From positions 192,001 to 256,000 of the forward strand of contig JABCTZ010000046.1 in assembly GCA_018238155.1 (NCBI GenBank): a stretch of 64,000 bases of DNA. Direction: 5' to 3'. Within the stretch, counting starts at the first letter, position 1; each line of letters begins with the position of its first letter. Positions 10,018-15,276 of the stretch are shown here, in pieces. A program made the position numbers and the translations under genes. The DNA comes from Candidatus Heimdallarchaeota archaeon (GTDB lineage Archaea > Asgardarchaeota > Heimdallarchaeia > JABLTI01). The notes under the pieces were generated by a model. It worked only from the letters and a program-made list of their open reading frames with translations, searched no databases and had not been told where the DNA came from.

Positions 10018-13000
10018 TTACTCTTCTTCACTCGAGATAGAGGGTTTTATGTCATCAGCTTTTAAATGTCTTTGACAAACCGGACAAGAGCCTTTCACTT
10101 TTATCCACTCAAATAAATGCTCATTATGAGCAACATTTTCACAGTGGGGACATTTTGCAGTATCTACACCAAAACTAATTGGTAATTTACAAACTGAACA
10201 TTTTACCGTTTCTATACCGCAATTGGGGCATAAATCCTCTCCAAAAGCTTTTTCGACTCCACATGAAAAACATCGAATAAGTCTTCTGTCTAATCGTTCT
10301 TTTATGACCTCTTGAGCTGCAGGTATTACCATTTCTTTTGGTTGTACACCCAAACCAATGAGGTGAGTTATTTCTTTGATTATTCTATTCTTGTAGAAAT
10401 CTGGTGCGTATTGATAGGCATATTGTAGATGTGTTAATGAATTTTGTAGATCTTCTGAATCTTTGTAAGCTAGACCAAGATCTTCTGCTACAAAATAGAG
10501 CGGTATGGTCATTTCAATTCCCAATATTCGTCTACTTTGTTCACTTAAACCATTTAATATTTGAAATTCGTTTAGAAGTGCAGCAGCTTTCTTTTCTTTG
10601 TTTTTCATTTTACGTGCATCAACAATTCTATTTAGGGGGTCTAATATCCAATCTACAATATCTAACCATTGCTCATTCTTTAACACTACAAGTGATTCTT
10701 TTGCCTTTTGCCAAAATGTCAATGTATCGAAGAATTTTCCTTCCCAAGCTAGATTTTGCCCTTGGAGTAGTAAATCTCGAGCACGGTATCCATGGAATAA
10801 TTCTAATTTTTCAGGTTGATATTCTTCACTTATTTTAATACCCATTTCCCAATTTCCTGTTGCAGAGTACTCTTTTATTAAATTATCAATTGCCTTTGAT
10901 TTGAACCAAGGTAAATCCATTACTAATGGTTCATCATCAGTAAATTGTTTTCTAATTCTTTCCTTATTCACCTTATATGTAATAACCAAAAAGGCAAAGA
11001 ATAATACAACTACAACCGCTAGCATTATCCAAAGACTGTTCAATAAATCGACGGGTAAAATATGAAAGTTTGTTTTTACTTGCACTGTTGTTGTGAATTG
11101 ATAGGTTCCCACATTTGTAATCAGGGTTATTGTTATTAGTTCAGAATAAGTTTCTTCACTATAATTGTTTGTGAGGTTTATGTTCAAATTATAAGAAGAA
11201 TTGCTTGTTGAATTAATAGTGTAATTATATGTATTTGAACTTCCAGATATATCTGCCTCTATGGTAACATTAACATCAATCTCGATTTCTAATTGATTGG
11301 TAATATCTAATTGAATTGTTTGAGTAGTATTTTCCTCCTTTCTTAAAACAATTGGATCAGGTGGAAAAGTAGTTACAAATTCAGGTAAAGCAGTTATAGT
11401 CATCGTAAATGAATGCTCATCAATAACAATATCATCCATTAGAACTTGTATAACAATGTCATCATTCGTTACGTCTTCATCAAAACCAGTTAAATTTAGA
11501 ATTATCTGATTTGGTACTTCAGTTATTGTTTGATTTATTTCAGGATGGTTTTCTAGAAATGTTTTTACTGTAAAATCATCTCTTAATCGAACATTTCCAA
11601 GCAAATCATATATTTCAATTTGAACTTTATTTGCTTCATTCTTTATGAGAAAATGTGAATTTGCTGAGACTCTCATTGGAACATATTGGGACAAGTAAAA
11701 TTCAATATAATGATCTCCTTCACTGTCGTATCCTAACCAAGAGCCAATGTTGGCATAATCCAGGTTCAAGGATGCACAGGATTTTATCCTATAGGTACTT
11801 GATTGTCCTGAAGCAATTTCTTGTGAATCATTACTTGATATTACAGAATAATGGCTTCGAGTTAAACCCAGTAAGTCATATGTAGTCAAAATAATCTCAT
11901 CACTATCATCCAAGTCAATATCAGAAATTAGCCCATCAAATGACCATCCTGGAGATAAATCGAGAGACTTTATTGTGGGAGACCCAAATGTACCAGATTG
12001 ATAACTTACTGTTACACATGAAGGATAACTAAATGCACCAATATAATGAACACCAAATAATACAATACCGGGATTTTCACTTTCGGCAATATGATATAAT
12101 TTCATATTATAAGTCCTAAATGTTTCTGAACCAAAATTCATTTGAAAAGTAGACTCAAATACATATTCCCTGGTATCATTCTTAATTATTGAAATTCCTA
12201 TTACAAATGATTCTATGGATGTTGAATTTACTCCAGAGATTATAAAATTTAAAGTATCATATTCTTCGATATAATCCATTTTAAATTCTTCTAAATCATT
12301 TGCATCCCATTCCAATATCTGAGATAATTCATATTCATTACTCGTCTGATTATACTCATATTCTGCTAAAAGATAATAATCAGTGTTGGTTGTATTTTCC
12401 CCTATGACATAGATTTCGAAGAAATCATCACTATTCACATCAAAAACAATAAATTGATCAAGAGATCCAAATATTGATGCGTTAATAGCGATTGTAGCAT
12501 TTAAAGAGAAATATCCAGCATTGATTTCTAAAATATCTATCTCAAATCTATTTGATGTTGTTATTTCTTTCAAAGCAAAGACTGTTGGATTCTGGCGTGT
12601 ACTATCAAAGCTGGTATTGATTGATTGGCAATTCAAGTACTCTGTTTCAGCTAAAGAAGTATTGAGATATATATCAGATACAAAGGGTTCCGGATTCGCA
12701 ATAATTGTATCATCGAATTCTATTAACTGAAGCAATCCATGTTTGTGGTTCGTCTGGTTTTCAATTGATCCTACTGTAACATACCCTCCATCAAAACTAT
12801 TGCTAAAATCAATTGATTTAATCTCATTCATTAGATGAGAATCATTAAAACTTAAATCAGAAGTTTTTTGTAATAAATAATCTAGCTCTGTATCTTGATA
12901 TATTTCATAACTATAACTTTCAATTAGATTAGGATCTCTCAAAGAGAACTCTTGTCTCAAATTGTTAGTAACAGCGAATGCTATTGCTAACGAACTCAAT

Positions 13001-13056
13001 ATCAAAGACGAAATTACTAAATAACTTATGAGAATCTTTTTCACTAAATCACCCAC
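10018..13056 (-). CDS. Type I membrane receptor-like protein: propeller/Ig-like ectodomain, TM, helical/TPR-like region, zinc ribbon and C-terminal RING (putative E3 ligase)
   Basis: Signal peptide; FG-GAP-like loops DVNSDDFFEI and DIDLDDSDEI; Ig-like Thr/Asn-rich beta domains; TM LWIMLAVVVVLFFAFLVITY; CFSC..CPNC; CSVC-x12-CPHC-x4-H-x2-H-xxxW-x6-CPVC. Confidence 0.8.
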   Translation of the reverse strand: MGDLVKKILISYLVISSLILSSLAIAFAVTNNLRQEFSLRDPNLIESYSYEIYQDTELDYLLQKTSDLSFNDSHLMNEIKSIDFSNSFDGGYVTVGSIENQTNHKHGLLQLIEFDDTIIANPEPFVSDIYLNTSLAETEYLNCQSINTSFDSTRQNPTVFALKEITTSNRFEIDILEINAGYFSLNATIAINASIFGSLDQFIVFDVNSDDFFEIYVIGENTTNTDYYLLAEYEYNQTSNEYELSQILEWDANDLEEFKMDYIEEYDTLNFIISGVNSTSIESFVIGISIIKNDTREYVFESTFQMNFGSETFRTYNMKLYHIAESENPGIVLFGVHYIGAFSYPSCVTVSYQSGTFGSPTIKSLDLSPGWSFDGLISDIDLDDSDEIILTTYDLLGLTRSHYSVISSNDSQEIASGQSSTYRIKSCASLNLDYANIGSWLGYDSEGDHYIEFYLSQYVPMRVSANSHFLIKNEANKVQIEIYDLLGNVRLRDDFTVKTFLENHPEINQTITEVPNQIILNLTGFDEDVTNDDIVIQVLMDDIVIDEHSFTMTITALPEFVTTFPPDPIVLRKEENTTQTIQLDITNQLEIEIDVNVTIEADISGSSNTYNYTINSTSNSSYNLNINLTNNYSEETYSELITITLITNVGTYQFTTTVQVKTNFHILPVDLLNSLWIMLAVVVVLFFAFLVITYKVNKERIRKQFTDDEPLVMDLPWFKSKAIDNLIKEYSATGNWEMGIKISEEYQPEKLELFHGYRARDLLLQGQNLAWEGKFFDTLTFWQKAKESLVVLKNEQWLDIVDWILDPLNRIVDARKMKNKEKKAAALLNEFQILNGLSEQSRRILGIEMTIPLYFVAEDLGLAYKDSEDLQNSLTHLQYAYQYAPDFYKNRIIKEITHLIGLGVQPKEMVIPAAQEVIKERLDRRLIRCFSCGVEKAFGEDLCPNCGIETVKCSVCKLPISFGVDTAKCPHCENVAHNEHLFEWIKVKGSCPVCQRHLKADDIKPSISSEEE

Positions 13057-13095: not shown

Positions 13096-15276
13096 CTAAT
13101 TAACTCCCTTTTTAGATTTTTTCCGTTTTCTTATAGAAACAAAAACGCCAATTATCATCAAAGATGTCAACAGTATGCCAAATGGAATTGGTGATAGTTG
13201 AGAGGCATAAGATCTATAATACGGATCGCCAACAGTTACTTCTTCAGGACCGTAGTATAGGGAAAATGCTCCAGAACGAACAATTTGTTCAACCCAAAAG
13301 AAATATTCACCATCGGTCAGTACAATATTCTCATATGTGCTAATTGTATCAATTAGAGTCCAATCGCTATCGAAAATAGTTACAGAAGCAACGAGTTCAG
13401 TATCGTAAGGCACAAGTGTAAAGAAACCACTTCCATCAGAAATTGCTATTTGTGCTTTGAATAATATTGTTCTTCTTAACTCTGAAATTATTGGTTTATT
13501 ATTTTCAAAGTATCCAAAAGTCAATATTTCATCTACTGAAGTCCATTTTACTTTGATAGATGAGCTGCTAGTATTCCCTTGAAGTGAAACCAAAAAGTTG
13601 TTGATATATGAAGTCTTGTTAATTCTAATGATTCTTTCTGTTGAAGTAGAGTATATTGTTGATACATCGAAATCACTAGCATCTAATTCAATACTTAGAC
13701 TTTGATCAGATTCAATCCAAAGATACCCAATGTCTGAATCTCTATTATAGCTTAAATAGGAATAAGTGTTATTGAAACTAAAGCTCAATCTCTTGGTTGA
13801 ATTATCCTTTATAAAAAGAAATTCAGTTATTGAATCCATAGATATAGGATAAACTGCAATAGTGATATTGAATATAATGGTCACACCAACATTGCTAAGA
13901 CCATCCATAGCCTCAATATAAAATGAAACTTTGTCTCCTTCTACAAGATTATCAAGAGTAGTATAATATGTATTATCTATTACATCTGTGAGTATCATAA
14001 AATGCCAAGTTGGACTATATGGTCCTGTAAGCGAATCGTAAGTATAGTACATATTTACTTGAGCTATTTCAGATATATCCATAACTGTAGCATATATTTC
14101 TAATTCATAATCATTGTTTACAATATTGTTTGCTATTGTTGAAACTGTTATGGATGGCGGTGCAAGATCTATAATGATCTCTTTCGTCAATTCAGAAAAA
14201 TGATACTCATCCCCTGTTCCAGTGTTTTCAGTCCAAGAGATATTGACATTAAGATCGACAAAATACTCTCTAACCAATTCCAATGTCCAGCCCTCTATCA
14301 ATTCAGGCAAGTCAATAGGATCAGTTCCAGATTGAATATCTTCCAAGTACACACATTCACCTTCAGTGTGATCAGCAATCCATTGAAATTGGTTTTCAAC
14401 TATGCCACTTATACCTGTGATTACAGAATTGATTATCACATCCTTCTCCTTTAGAGAAGTTATAACATTCACCAATTGAGTTCCGTTATAATAATCAGCT
14501 GTTGAACCTAACCCAACGATATTCCCAGGATCACAATCTTCATCTCCAACAATAATTGCTAATTTTGGAACATCTTCACGCCAAGACCAACTATTAATTA
14601 CGGAAAAAGCATCACCCCAAGGTTCAACACCACCAGTGGCTGTCAATTCATCAATCAGATTTAATACTTCATTGTGATTGGTTGTTAATTGAACGTAATT
14701 ATTCACACTTGAGGCAGGATATTCACTATATTTATCCCAACCATAAACTATCATACCAATTCGTAATGAATTTATATTATCTGATAAGCTGTTTACAACT
14801 TCAGTAAATTTAGCTTTTATTGAACTGATTTCATCACTCATGGATCCACTTGCATCAAAAACCAAAACTACGTCTGCAGCATTTTCATCGTCAATTTGAG
14901 TCAAATTGAGAATTACTTCTACATTTATCGTAGAATTTTGGGTTGGAGAAATCAAAGCTACTTCTTGATAACTAGAGTATGTTGAAGAAAATTCTGAAAA
15001 TTCTCCATCAAGAGTAAAATTAACTTTTACATTGCTTACGGGGTTTGTACCTGTATTATCCAAATAAATCTCAGCTAATGCTCCATTGTGTCTGCCAATT
15101 GATGTTTGATTTAATGTAAAATCGATCTCCAAATCTTCAAAACTATCGGGGGTCAGATCAATAGTTTGAGGGGAATCTGGTTTTATTGCATCACCCATAG
15201 ACAGACTCACTATCAAGCTCATAATAACTAGAAATAAGGTTATTTTTTGTGTTGGCAAGAGTTTTTTCATCGTCAC
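13096..15276 (-). CDS. Membrane-anchored vWA (MIDAS) surface protein
   Basis: Signal peptide; DVVLVFDASGSMSDE; LRIGMIVY; TGGVEPW; WREDVPKLAIIVGDE; flanking Ig-like strands; C-terminal TM and RKRKK. Confidence 0.88.
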   Translation of the reverse strand: MTMKKLLPTQKITLFLVIMSLIVSLSMGDAIKPDSPQTIDLTPDSFEDLEIDFTLNQTSIGRHNGALAEIYLDNTGTNPVSNVKVNFTLDGEFSEFSSTYSSYQEVALISPTQNSTINVEVILNLTQIDDENAADVVLVFDASGSMSDEISSIKAKFTEVVNSLSDNINSLRIGMIVYGWDKYSEYPASSVNNYVQLTTNHNEVLNLIDELTATGGVEPWGDAFSVINSWSWREDVPKLAIIVGDEDCDPGNIVGLGSTADYYNGTQLVNVITSLKEKDVIINSVITGISGIVENQFQWIADHTEGECVYLEDIQSGTDPIDLPELIEGWTLELVREYFVDLNVNISWTENTGTGDEYHFSELTKEIIIDLAPPSITVSTIANNIVNNDYELEIYATVMDISEIAQVNMYYTYDSLTGPYSPTWHFMILTDVIDNTYYTTLDNLVEGDKVSFYIEAMDGLSNVGVTIIFNITIAVYPISMDSITEFLFIKDNSTKRLSFSFNNTYSYLSYNRDSDIGYLWIESDQSLSIELDASDFDVSTIYSTSTERIIRINKTSYINNFLVSLQGNTSSSSIKVKWTSVDEILTFGYFENNKPIISELRRTILFKAQIAISDGSGFFTLVPYDTELVASVTIFDSDWTLIDTISTYENIVLTDGEYFFWVEQIVRSGAFSLYYGPEEVTVGDPYYRSYASQLSPIPFGILLTSLMIIGVFVSIRKRKKSKKGVN

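What the first reader, a model, noticed from the sequence alone, without database searches (positions are those of the whole stretch)
10018..10980. Cytoplasmic helical/TPR-like + zinc ribbon + C4-H-H-C2 RING tail: a receptor-type E3 ligase in a prokaryote
Seen: CSVC-x12-CPHC-x4-H-x2-H-LFEW-x6-CPVC, including the Trp and the CP before the last Cys pair, preceded by CFSC..CPNC and helical repeats. Established: these positions form the E2-binding surface of RING ligases, and eukaryotic ectodomain-TM-RING ligases (RNF43/ZNRF3, GRAIL) ubiquitinate membrane cargo for ESCRT sorting. Inference: ligand-gated membrane E3. This holds independently of the integrin analogy.
Basis: partly seen in the sequence, partly recalled or inferred. 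Interest (0 to 1): 0.8.

Follow-up and report, generated by a model that had tools for sequence, protein, structure and literature searches.

The report
Asgard surface receptor with RING tail
A Heimdall-group Asgard archaeon encodes a large sugar-coated surface protein whose inner tail carries a helical scaffold, a zinc ribbon and the same RING finger as the ubiquitin-operon ligases of its relatives. It is therefore a probable but untested membrane-bound ubiquitin ligase, one of a large Asgard family.

Summary
The gene at 10018..13056 (-) encodes a 1012-aa type I membrane protein. Its cytoplasmic tail has a TPR-like solenoid, a CxxC..CxxC zinc ribbon and a C4-H2-C2 finger.

- **Conservation:** all 12 zinc ligands, the Trp and the Pro are invariant in orthologues.
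- **Fold:** the finger models as a RING/U-box cross-brace, not PHD or LIM.
- **Relatives:** it is 45-46% identical, without gaps, to small RING proteins in RING-Ub-E2-E1 operons of two other Asgard genomes.
- **Ubiquitin system:** the genome has Ub ending in GG, an E1 and a canonical E2.
- **Distribution:** in 121 sampled genomes of the phylum, the module and the E2 occur in the same 89.

An E3 role is likely, at about 0.6. Ligand gating and ESCRT sorting are untested.

The finger is not unusual here. This genome has 21-30 copies on many different proteins, and the family has more than 1,100 representatives.

The zinc ribbon plus RING best matches the C-terminal domains of eukaryotic IFT-A and GATOR2 proteins. 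RINGs of the homologous yeast SEA complex act structurally, and that is the main rival reading.

Archaeal RING E3s are already published, so this is a new variant of a known kind. The scan has found the same kind before on other DNA, including a likely orthologue.

The parts
12973..13056 (-). N-terminal signal peptide / first hydrophobic segment (residues 1-28, ending ...AFA-VT)
   Evidence: Hydrophobic window at residues 8-26; sequence read.
11035..12972 (-). Ectodomain of about 646 aa (residues 29-674). It is beta-rich and acidic, with 20 N-glycosylation sequons. It is probably an FG-GAP-type propeller plus Ig/CARDB-like domains, but that is a lead only.
   Evidence: Sequon count. Weak Pfam Ig_VWA7 hit at 548-613, E 0.0025. 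Atlas feature neighbours are FG-GAP/CARDB proteins, score 0.85 with 198 shared features. No structure was predicted here.
10978..11034 (-). Single transmembrane helix (residues 675-693), followed by the basic stretch YKVNKERIRKQ, consistent with the positive-inside rule
   Evidence: Hydropathy 3.03; sequence. The helix is conserved in all orthologues.
10282..10968 (-). Cytoplasmic TPR-like alpha-solenoid (residues ~697-925, about ten helices)
   Evidence: AF2 model m0cd547988934, pLDDT 92. VIA matches: IFT-A TPR Z 12.4 and 10.9, generic TPR proteins Z 8-10. At sequence level it is found only in the orthogroup and is single-copy in the genome.
10219..10272 (-). Zinc ribbon: C929, C932, C943, C946
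   Evidence: These Cys are invariant in orthologues. Sub-threshold Pfam DZR and Zn_ribbon_3 hits. A ribbon precedes the finger in 139 of 147 family members. The model shows a beta-hairpin pair.
10075..10200 (-). RING finger of C4H2C2 order. Ligands are C953, C956, C969, C972, H977, H980, C991 and C994. The central helix spans about 978-988. V955, W984 and P992 lie on the expected E2-binding face.
   Evidence: zf-RING_2 matches positions 2-44 of 44 at 20.8 bits, below the 27.3 cut-off.
10018..10074 (-). C-terminal tail (Q995, R996 ... SSEEE) and stop codon. Gln sits at the linchpin position and Arg one residue later.
   Evidence: Sequence; orthologue C-termini; family statistics.
13096..15276 (-). 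Upstream co-oriented partner gene: a single-pass VWA-domain surface protein (726 aa) with a short basic cytoplasmic tail
   Evidence: Pfam VWA, E 1.6e-8. It lies directly upstream, with a gap of 1-41 bp, in all 7 related loci at 29-77% identity. The gap is 39 bp in the window.

Best explanation
The gene encodes a type I surface protein. It probably pairs with the VWA protein encoded 39 bp upstream. Its cytoplasmic tail is a membrane-anchored RING-type ubiquitin ligase.

The RING would recruit the genome's Ub-charged E2. It would then promote Ub transfer to lysines held near the membrane. Candidate targets are the protein itself, its partner's Lys-rich tail, or clients bound by the TPR-like solenoid.

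**Shown here**
- Gene, topology, conservation and RING fold.
- Family identity with ubiquitin-operon RINGs.
- Presence of Ub, E1 and E2 in the genome.
- Co-distribution of the module with E2.

**Inferred**
- E2 binding and ligase activity.

**Speculative**
- Control by an outside ligand.
- A link to ESCRT sorting.
For: **Fold**
- The module model has pLDDT 85.7, with a helix directly after the His pair.
- All 50 best VIA matches are RING or U-box E3 domains: Prp19 Z 7.5, rmsd 1.8 Å, 56 aligned; also TRAF6, RING1B, RNF4 and CHIP.

**Sequence**
- A profile of 96 family members hits RING-H2 E3s in the PDB: RNF126 1.8e-7, RNF24, Arkadia, EL5, Hrd1, ZNRF3.
- zf-RING_2 matches 89 of 96 members at E<=0.01.

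**Same family as operon E3s**
- Two other Asgard genomes encode small RINGs in RING-Ub-E2-E1 operons next to ESCRT-I-like genes.
- These have the identical C4H2C2 spacing and are 45-46% identical to this RING without gaps.
- Archaeal small RINGs of ubiquitin operons were shown to be E3s. Their Ile, Trp and Arg residues were needed for activity (PMC5654768; bioRxiv 10.1101/2023.07.25.550441).

**E2-face residues across 147 family members**
- V/I/L two residues after the first Cys: 143 of 147.
- Trp: 135 of 147.
- The Pro after ligand 7 is invariant in the 96-member module alignment.

**Ubiquitin system in this genome**
- Ub of 77 aa ending in GG.
- E2 with the HPN..C motif and the PF and W-T-P-A loops.
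- E1 46% identical over its full length to an operon E1.

**Phyletic pattern**
- The module and UQ_con E2 are found in the same 89 of 121 sampled genomes, with identical per-family tallies.
- For example, f10 has 0 of 17 for both. The one positive of seven in f23 is the same genome for both.

**Adaptor logic**
- In this genome the module ends WD40, HEAT, TPR, multi-pass and receptor-like proteins.

**Complex prediction, E2 plus module**
- Verdict: weak support. The score is 0.38 and the best control 0.00.
- The runs agree in at least 87% of contacts, and the partner's pLDDT is at least 76.
- The pass mark was reached by 58 of 80 solved complexes and 2 of 110 mismatches.
- At 0.60 or under it was reached by only 7 of those 80, and by both mismatches.
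- My own alignments were used, so these counts hold only roughly.
- RING-E2 complexes are solved, so this pass may only reflect likeness.
Against: - No activity or binding was measured.
- This protein is below every Pfam RING cut-off: zf-RING_2 20.8 vs 27.3 bits, Prok-RING_1 22.5 vs 29.1.
- The ligand order is non-canonical.
- The position after the last Cys is Gln in the whole orthogroup. In studied RINGs it is the Arg/Lys linchpin. Against this, one ubiquitin-operon RING also has Gln there, and only 60 of 147 family members have K/R.
- The gene is not next to Ub, E1 or E2 genes.
- The whole zinc ribbon plus RING best matches IFT-A and GATOR2 C-terminal domains. The homologous SEA-complex RINGs hold the complex together, and no ubiquitin role has been established for them (PMC9646525).
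- The Trp is also kept in MIOS, so it does not prove E2 binding.
- Co-distribution with E2 rests on few independent losses among related genomes.
- Nothing bears on ligand gating.
Confidence: 0.6

Rival explanations
1. The zinc ribbon plus RING is an assembly module, as in SEACAT/GATOR2 and IFT-A. It would pair with the RING tail of another copy or of one of the 20-30 paralogues. That would cluster surface proteins or build a membrane-proximal scaffold together with the TPR solenoid, without any ligase activity.
For: **Sequence**
- The family profile matches both zinc modules of MIOS (4e-6), WDR19 (5e-6), WDR24, WDR59 and IFT122.
- MIOS shares the ribbon and the C..C-x4-H-x2-H...W...CP pattern.

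**Structure**
- The best Foldseek matches of the module are IFT144/WDR19 C-termini, with TM 0.64-0.65 and rmsd 2.7-3.1 Å over 82-83 columns, followed by GATOR2 and SEA.
- The whole tail matches IFT-A, GATOR2 and SEA chains.
- The nearest Atlas shapes are IFT121/IFT144 zinc fingers and the WDR59 RING.

**Precedent**
- In the SEA complex, RING heterodimers are structural (PMC9646525).

**This orthogroup**
- Gln sits at the linchpin position.
- Many paralogues could serve as partners.
Against: - The RING part is the same family as operon-encoded small RINGs that lack the ribbon and sit between Ub, E2 and E1 genes.
- The module is found in exactly the genomes that have an E2.
- E2-face residues are kept family-wide.
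- Pfam scores for zf-RING_16 and zinc_ribbon_16 are lower than those for zf-RING_2 and Prok-RING_1.
- The two roles do not exclude each other, since many RING E3s act as dimers.
Confidence: 0.22
2. It is an active E3, but not a signalling receptor. The ectodomain would be an adhesin or cell-surface structural protein, and the RING would only set the turnover or quality control of the complex, without ligand control.
For: - The ectodomain is heavily sequon-decorated, like archaeal surface proteins.
- A VWA partner is typical of adhesion.
- Nearby genes encode other surface proteins.
- No sensory or ligand-binding domain was identified.
Against: - There is no direct evidence either way.
- A conserved 230-aa cytoplasmic solenoid suggests specific client binding rather than self-turnover alone.
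Confidence: 0.12
3. The finger is a PHD- or LIM-like reader, or a generic zinc finger that binds nucleic acid or lipid, with no link to ubiquitin.
For: - The first half of the finger has PHD-like spacing, C-x2-C-x12-C-x2-C-x4-H.
- A half-profile weakly hits a KMT2D PHD finger (E 1.2e-3) and generic zinc ribbons.
Against: - Ligand 6 is His, not Cys, in 146 of 147 members.
- The Trp lies four residues after ligand 6, not two before ligand 7.
- A central helix follows the His pair.
- Full-length profile hits are RING-H2 E3s.
- The finger is homologous to operon RINGs.
- The module is co-distributed with E2.
Confidence: 0.04

Closest known systems
Small RING finger protein (srfp) E3 of archaeal ubiquitin operons: Caldiarchaeum subterraneum (PMC5654768) and a Helarchaeial RING E3 (bioRxiv 10.1101/2023.07.25.550441)
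   Same: The finger family and C4H2C2 spacing are the same as in Asgard operon RINGs, with 45-46% identity and no gaps. The hydrophobic residue, Trp and Pro on the E2 face are shared. It co-occurs with E2. PMC5654768 also notes an extra Cys displacing the canonical C3/H4 ligands.
   Different: Those proteins are about 60-120 aa, soluble and operon-encoded. This RING is the last 60 aa of a 1012-aa type I membrane protein. It is preceded by a zinc ribbon and a TPR solenoid, it lies outside any ubiquitin operon, and it has Gln at the linchpin position. I did not align it directly to the two assayed proteins.
Eukaryotic ectodomain-TM-RING ligases: PA-TM-RING (RNF13, GRAIL/RNF128) and RNF43/ZNRF3
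   Same: The architecture is shared: signal peptide, ectodomain, one TM helix and a cytoplasmic RING. The RING parts match the family profile weakly (ZNRF3 2.3e-3, RNF13 2.5e-3).
   Different: No homologous ectodomain was found, with no PA domain in Pfam. The ligand order is C4H2C2 rather than C3H2C3. This protein has an extra zinc ribbon and a 230-aa solenoid. The likeness is one of design, not shown descent.
C-terminal zinc-finger plus RING domains of protocoatomer-type proteins: GATOR2/SEACAT (MIOS/Sea4, WDR24/Sea2, WDR59/Sea3) and IFT-A (IFT144/WDR19, IFT122, IFT121)
   Same: An alpha-solenoid is followed by a zinc ribbon and then a RING. MIOS has the same C..C-x4-H-x2-H...W...CP pattern. 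These are the best whole-module matches by profile and by fold.
   Different: Those proteins are cytosolic, with N-terminal WD40 propellers. SEA-complex RINGs act as heterodimerising structural elements (PMC9646525). Here the N-terminal beta-rich part lies outside the cell. Pfam scores are sub-threshold: zf-RING_16 16.5 and zinc_ribbon_16 17.7 bits.
Pfam Prok-RING_1 (PF14446), prokaryotic RING fingers
   Same: It matches 62 of 96 family members at E<=0.01, with a best E-value of 5.9e-11.
   Different: This protein scores 22.5 bits against a cut-off of 29.1, and only the first half of the model aligns, positions 4-32 of 54.

Membership tests
RING/U-box superfamily (cross-brace binuclear zinc finger) | Eight zinc ligands with cross-brace spacing, conserved | tested here: met
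   C953, C956, C969, C972, H977, H980, C991 and C994 are invariant in orthologues. They are at least 90% conserved in 96 family members.
RING/U-box superfamily (cross-brace binuclear zinc finger) | RING/U-box fold with a central helix after ligands 5 and 6 | tested here: met
   The model has pLDDT 85.7, with a helix at model residues 59-69. All 50 top VIA matches are RING or U-box domains, Z 5.0-7.5. This rests on a predicted model, not a solved structure.
RING/U-box superfamily (cross-brace binuclear zinc finger) | Canonical ligand order C3H2C3 (RING-H2) or C3HC4 | tested here: not met
   The order is C4H2C2. Regular-expression searches find 0 canonical RING-H2 or RING-HC fingers in this genome, against 21 of this type. 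Alignment to RNF126 needs a shifted ligand 3/4 pair.
RING/U-box superfamily (cross-brace binuclear zinc finger) | Pfam zf-RING_2 gathering score | tested here: not met
   The score is 20.8 bits against a cut-off of 27.3, although the match is full-length, positions 2-44 of 44. 89 of 96 relatives match at E<=0.01.
Archaeal ubiquitin-operon RING E3 (srfp type) | Sequence homology to RINGs encoded within Ub-E2-E1 operons | tested here: met
   45% identity over 58 residues and 46% over 56, without gaps, E 2e-17 and 4e-19. Operon make-up was read.
Archaeal ubiquitin-operon RING E3 (srfp type) | Encoded beside Ub, E1 and E2 genes | tested here: not met
   Ub is on contig C1, E2 on C3, E1 on C13, and this gene on C7.
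Archaeal ubiquitin-operon RING E3 (srfp type) | E2-face residues: hydrophobic residue after the first Cys, Trp on the helix, Pro after ligand 7 | tested here: met
   V955, W984 and P992 are present. Family-wide counts are 143 of 147 for V/I/L and 135 of 147 for Trp. The Pro is invariant in the 96-member alignment.
Archaeal ubiquitin-operon RING E3 (srfp type) | Arg/Lys linchpin directly after the last Cys | tested here: not met
   Q995 is followed by R996, and Gln is kept in all orthologues. One operon RING also has Gln at this position.
Archaeal ubiquitin-operon RING E3 (srfp type) | Cognate Ub, E1 and E2 present in the genome, and co-distributed with the module | tested here: met
   The same 89 of 121 genomes carry both.
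Archaeal ubiquitin-operon RING E3 (srfp type) | E2 binding and E3 activity | not testable with these tools
   There is only a weak complex prediction, 0.38 against a best control of 0.00, which may reflect likeness to solved RING-E2 pairs.
GATOR2/SEACAT and IFT-A C-terminal zinc-finger plus RING domain | A zinc ribbon directly before a RING with the C..C-x4-H-x2-H pattern | tested here: met
   MIOS alignment. Whole-module profile hits for MIOS, WDR19, WDR24, WDR59 and IFT122. Fold matches.
GATOR2/SEACAT and IFT-A C-terminal zinc-finger plus RING domain | Pfam zf-RING_16 / zinc_ribbon_16 gathering scores | tested here: not met
   16.5 bits against 27.4, and 17.7 bits against 27.
GATOR2/SEACAT and IFT-A C-terminal zinc-finger plus RING domain | Cytosolic N-terminal WD40 propeller plus alpha-solenoid before the RING | tested here: not met
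   The solenoid is present. The N-terminal beta-rich part is extracellular and separated by a TM helix. Cytosolic WD40-RING and HEAT-RING paralogues do exist in the genome.
Eukaryotic PA-TM-RING and RNF43/ZNRF3 ligases | Homologous ectodomain (PA domain or ZNRF3-type) | tested here: not met
   Pfam gives no PA or related hit at E<=1. The nearest feature neighbours are FG-GAP/CARDB proteins.
PHD finger | C4HC3 ligands with a Trp two residues before ligand 7 | tested here: not met
   Ligand 6 is His in 146 of 147 members, and the Trp lies four residues after ligand 6.

The most novel reading that the evidence does not exclude
The Asgard zinc ribbon plus C4H2C2 RING is found here behind a TPR solenoid. 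In the same genome it also follows WD40, HEAT and TPR domains. On this reading it is the prokaryotic counterpart, and perhaps the source, of the C-terminal zinc-finger-RING domains of protocoatomer-type eukaryotic proteins (GATOR2/SEACAT, IFT-A, possibly HOPS/CORVET). Those eukaryotic scaffolds would then descend from Asgard ubiquitin-ligase adaptors. This receptor would show the module working at a membrane before endomembranes existed.
Probability: 0.3. Interest if true: 0.8.

Novelty: new variant of a known kind. Interest (0 to 1): 0.55.

Why it matters
In eukaryotes, ubiquitin tagging of membrane proteins by RING ligases starts ESCRT sorting, receptor down-regulation and membrane quality control. 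Published archaeal work shows that small soluble RING E3s function. This gene suggests that Asgard archaea also wired the same RING to the inner end of large surface proteins.

That gives a concrete protein with which to test whether receptor-coupled ubiquitination predates eukaryotes. All needed parts come from one genome: the tail, E1, E2 and Ub.

The match of the ribbon-RING pair to GATOR2 and IFT-A C-termini also gives a testable lead on where those eukaryotic scaffold domains came from.

Tried and rejected
- **PHD/LIM reading.** It was rejected on ligand pattern, Trp position, the central helix and full-profile hits. No PHD or LIM domain appeared among the 50 best VIA rows. That absence alone is not proof.
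- **Half-profile search.** A profile of the ribbon plus first half of the finger against the PDB gave only generic zinc ribbons, one PHD finger and ribosomal zinc proteins. It was not informative.
- **Paralogue C-terminus.** A single-sequence search of the WD40-RING paralogue's C-terminus against the PDB found nothing.
- **Ubiquitin operon near this gene.** None was found; Ub, E1 and E2 lie on other contigs.
- **Paralogues of the other parts.** The VWA partner, the ectodomain and the TPR solenoid have no paralogues in the genome.
- **Ectodomain fold.** The FG-GAP/CARDB assignment is a language-model lead at 0.85, and the integrin analogy was not evaluated.
- **Literature.** Searches found no description of receptor-type RING proteins in Asgard archaea. 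The held library is incomplete, so this is not proof of novelty.
- **Complex prediction.** The server was unreachable six times before the job ran.
Full report
**Observation**

The finding lies in the 3' third of a 3,039-bp ORF at 10018..13056 on the minus strand, which encodes 1012 aa. Every quoted motif is present.
- Zinc ribbon: CFSC at 929-932 and CPNC at 943-946.
- Finger: CSVC 953-956, x12, CPHC 969-972, x4, H977, x2, H980, LFEW with W984, x6, CPVC 991-994.

The pattern is not chance. It occurs in 21 ORFs of this genome and never in 20 residue-shuffled proteomes. In 11 orthologues down to 39% identity, all four ribbon Cys, all eight finger ligands, W984 and P992 are invariant.

**Gene product and topology**

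- Residues 8-26 are a hydrophobic signal-like segment.
- Residues 675-693 are the only other TM helix, followed by a basic stretch.
- The roughly 646-aa N-terminal part has 20 N-x-S/T sequons and the tail has none.
- All 10 Cys of the tail are zinc ligands.

So the zinc modules are cytoplasmic and the large part is outside. Pfam sees only a weak Ig_VWA7 hit in the ectodomain. A language-model search places it nearest FG-GAP plus CARDB proteins, score 0.85. That is a lead only, and I did not fold the ectodomain.

**Fold of the tail**

With a 69-row alignment, AlphaFold2 gives pLDDT 92 for residues 696-1012. The model shows about ten helices, then a ribbon, then a finger with a helix right after the His pair.
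- The helical part matches IFT-A TPR regions (Z 12.4 and 10.9) and many TPR proteins (Z 8-10). For helical repeats this shows the class, not kinship.
- The module alone (residues 920-1012, 96-row alignment, pLDDT 85.7) gives 50 of 50 best VIA matches to RING or U-box E3 domains. Examples are Prp19 (Z 7.5, rmsd 1.8 Å, 56 aligned), TRAF6, RING1B/BMI1, RNF4, Rad18, CHIP and Pex RINGs.

**Family**

An exhaustive HMMER search with the tail found 1,125 cluster representatives at E<=1e-3. Apart from about 15 orthologues, almost all match only the ribbon plus finger at their C-termini.

Among the 147 best hits that carry the finger:
- 139 have the ribbon;
- 94 have at least one TM helix;
- ligand 6 is His in 146;
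- Trp is kept in 135;
- V/I/L follows the first Cys in 143.

Named members are Asgard archaea. A profile of 96 members hits RING-H2 E3s in the PDB, led by RNF126 at 1.8e-7, and zf-RING_2 matches 89 of 96. This protein itself is below the Pfam cut-offs.

Relative to RING-H2, the C-x-H of ligands 3 and 4 is replaced by C-x2-C placed earlier, and ligand 6 is His. PMC5654768 describes a comparable extra Cys in the Caldiarchaeum E3.

**Link to the ubiquitin system**

The genome is a Heimdall-group MAG. The gene's tail is 86% identical at protein level to its counterpart in a deposited Heimdallarchaeota MAG. The genome encodes:
- a 77-aa Ub ending in GG;
- a 157-aa E2 with HPN..C and the PF and W-T-P-A loops;
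- a 333-aa E1 that is 46% identical to an operon E1.

In two other Asgard genomes, small RING proteins sit in RING-Ub-E2-E1 operons beside ESCRT-I-like genes. They have exactly this C4H2C2 spacing and are 45-46% identical to this RING without gaps.

Across 121 sampled genomes of the phylum, the module and UQ_con E2 are found in the same 89, with identical family tallies. One family is 0 of 17 for both, and a single genome of seven in another family is positive for both. Related genomes are not independent, so this rests on a few loss events. It is still what a working partnership predicts.

Archaeal operon RINGs have been shown to be E3s (PMC5654768; bioRxiv 10.1101/2023.07.25.550441).

The complex prediction of the E2 with the module gave weak support.
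- The score is 0.38 and the best control 0.00.
- The runs agree in at least 87% of contacts, and the partner's pLDDT is at least 76.
- The pass mark was reached by 58 of 80 solved complexes and 2 of 110 mismatches.
- At 0.60 or under it was reached by only 7 of those 80, and by both mismatches.
- My own alignments were used, so the counts hold only roughly.
- RING-E2 pairs are solved, so the pass may only reflect likeness.

**Points against a simple E3 reading**

- The residue after the last Cys is Gln in the whole orthogroup, with Arg next. In studied RINGs this is the linchpin Arg/Lys, which PMC5654768 found to be needed.
- One operon RING also has Gln there, and only 60 of 147 family members have K/R. 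This weakens the case without excluding activity.
- The gene is not in a ubiquitin operon.

**The rival and the most novel reading**

The ribbon plus RING taken together is best matched by the C-terminal domains of IFT-A and GATOR2/SEA proteins.
- The profile hits MIOS, WDR19, WDR24, WDR59 and IFT122 over both modules.
- MIOS shares the ribbon and the C..C-x4-H-x2-H...W...CP pattern.
- Foldseek puts WDR19/IFT144 first, with TM 0.65 and rmsd 2.7 Å.
- The whole tail hits IFT-A, GATOR2 and SEA chains.
- The nearest Atlas shapes are IFT121/IFT144 zinc fingers and the WDR59 RING.

In the SEA complex these RINGs heterodimerise and are structural, and a ubiquitin role is undetermined (PMC9646525).

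In this genome the same module also ends a WD40 protein, a HEAT/PCI-like protein, a TPR protein, two other receptor-like proteins and several multi-pass proteins. That fits either E3 adaptor logic or a pool of pairing partners. The two readings are compatible, since many RING E3s act as dimers.

**Context**

A VWA-domain single-pass protein is encoded directly upstream, with a gap of 1-41 bp, in all seven related loci at 29-77% identity. A two-subunit surface complex is therefore likely. The partner's short cytoplasmic tail is basic and usually Lys-rich. It is a possible substrate, but such tails are common membrane anchors.

An EAP30/Vps22-36-like gene lies 2-3 kb downstream in the same orientation in the four loci long enough to show it. 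The whole region is syntenic, so this is only a hint of an ESCRT link.

**Novelty**

RING E3s in Asgard and Aigarchaeota are published, and RING E3 ligases are listed among Asgard eukaryotic signature proteins (bioRxiv 10.64898/2026.10.28.762692). I found no paper that describes receptor-type versions.

Earlier notes of this scan describe the same kind of protein in many other genomes, including a likely orthologue and a paralogue in this genome. I reached the same reading from my own tests.

**Verdict**

This is a real, conserved gene and a new architectural variant of a known kind. An E3 role is probable at about 0.6. Ligand gating is unshown.

Noticed in passing
window 6751-7791 (-): An EAP30/Vps22-36-like protein of 346 aa (Pfam E 1.4e-4, below the cut-off) lies 2-3 kb downstream of the receptor gene, in the same orientation. 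It is conserved at 50-59% identity in the four related loci long enough to show it. A 243-aa paralogue lies on contig C21.
   Followed up: partly
window 13096-15276 (-): A VWA-domain single-pass surface protein is always encoded directly upstream of the RING receptor (7 of 7 loci, gap 1-41 bp). Its cytoplasmic tail is 5-14 aa long, basic and mostly Lys-rich.
   Followed up: partly
own genome, L029 (G000:C27:7583-9154), L028 (C41:69480-71543), L033 (C17:38546-39769): Cytosolic paralogues join the same ribbon-RING module to a WD40 propeller (523 aa), to HEAT repeats plus a PCI-like region (687 aa) and to TPRs (407 aa, with faint IFT140/WDR35 TPR hits). The domain pairs recall GATOR2/SEACAT and IFT-A subunits. 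An orthogroup of about 690 aa with this module recurs in many genomes of the class.
   Followed up: partly
own genome, L031 (G000:C21:28847-31732) and L030 (C24:13217-15661): Two further receptor-type RING proteins occur in the same genome. One has an LVIVD-repeat propeller plus bacterial TSP3 repeats outside (961 aa). The other has a CARDB-like ectodomain (814 aa).
   Followed up: partly
own genome, C1:130456-133000: Three tandem genes encode two-pass membrane proteins of about 195-218 aa, each ending in the RING without the zinc ribbon.
   Followed up: no
L037 (G067:C8) 1526-5978 and L038 (G039:C66) 1468-5550: Compact RING-Ub-E2-E1 operons lie next to genes that look like UEV-Vps23 and Vps28/steadiness-box proteins. 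This is the arrangement described in bioRxiv 10.1101/2023.07.25.550441.
   Followed up: partly
121 sampled genomes of the phylum: The ribbon-RING module and the UQ_con E2 show the same presence and absence genome by genome (89 of 121). One whole family of 17 fairly complete genomes lacks both.
   Followed up: yes
L012 (DATKZI010000014.1, 447 kb contig): A record titled Candidatus Bathyarchaeia carries the whole syntenic block: surface protein, D-Ser-dehydratase-like gene, VWA gene, RING receptor, CYTH, EAP30-like gene and GNAT. All other carriers are labelled Heimdallarchaeota, so the label or the bin may be wrong.
   Followed up: no
PDB hit 9fhl_a 'aS34': A 72-aa archaeal ribosome-associated zinc protein matches the family profile at E 3.5e-5 over the RING part. 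Its relation to the family is unexplained.
   Followed up: no
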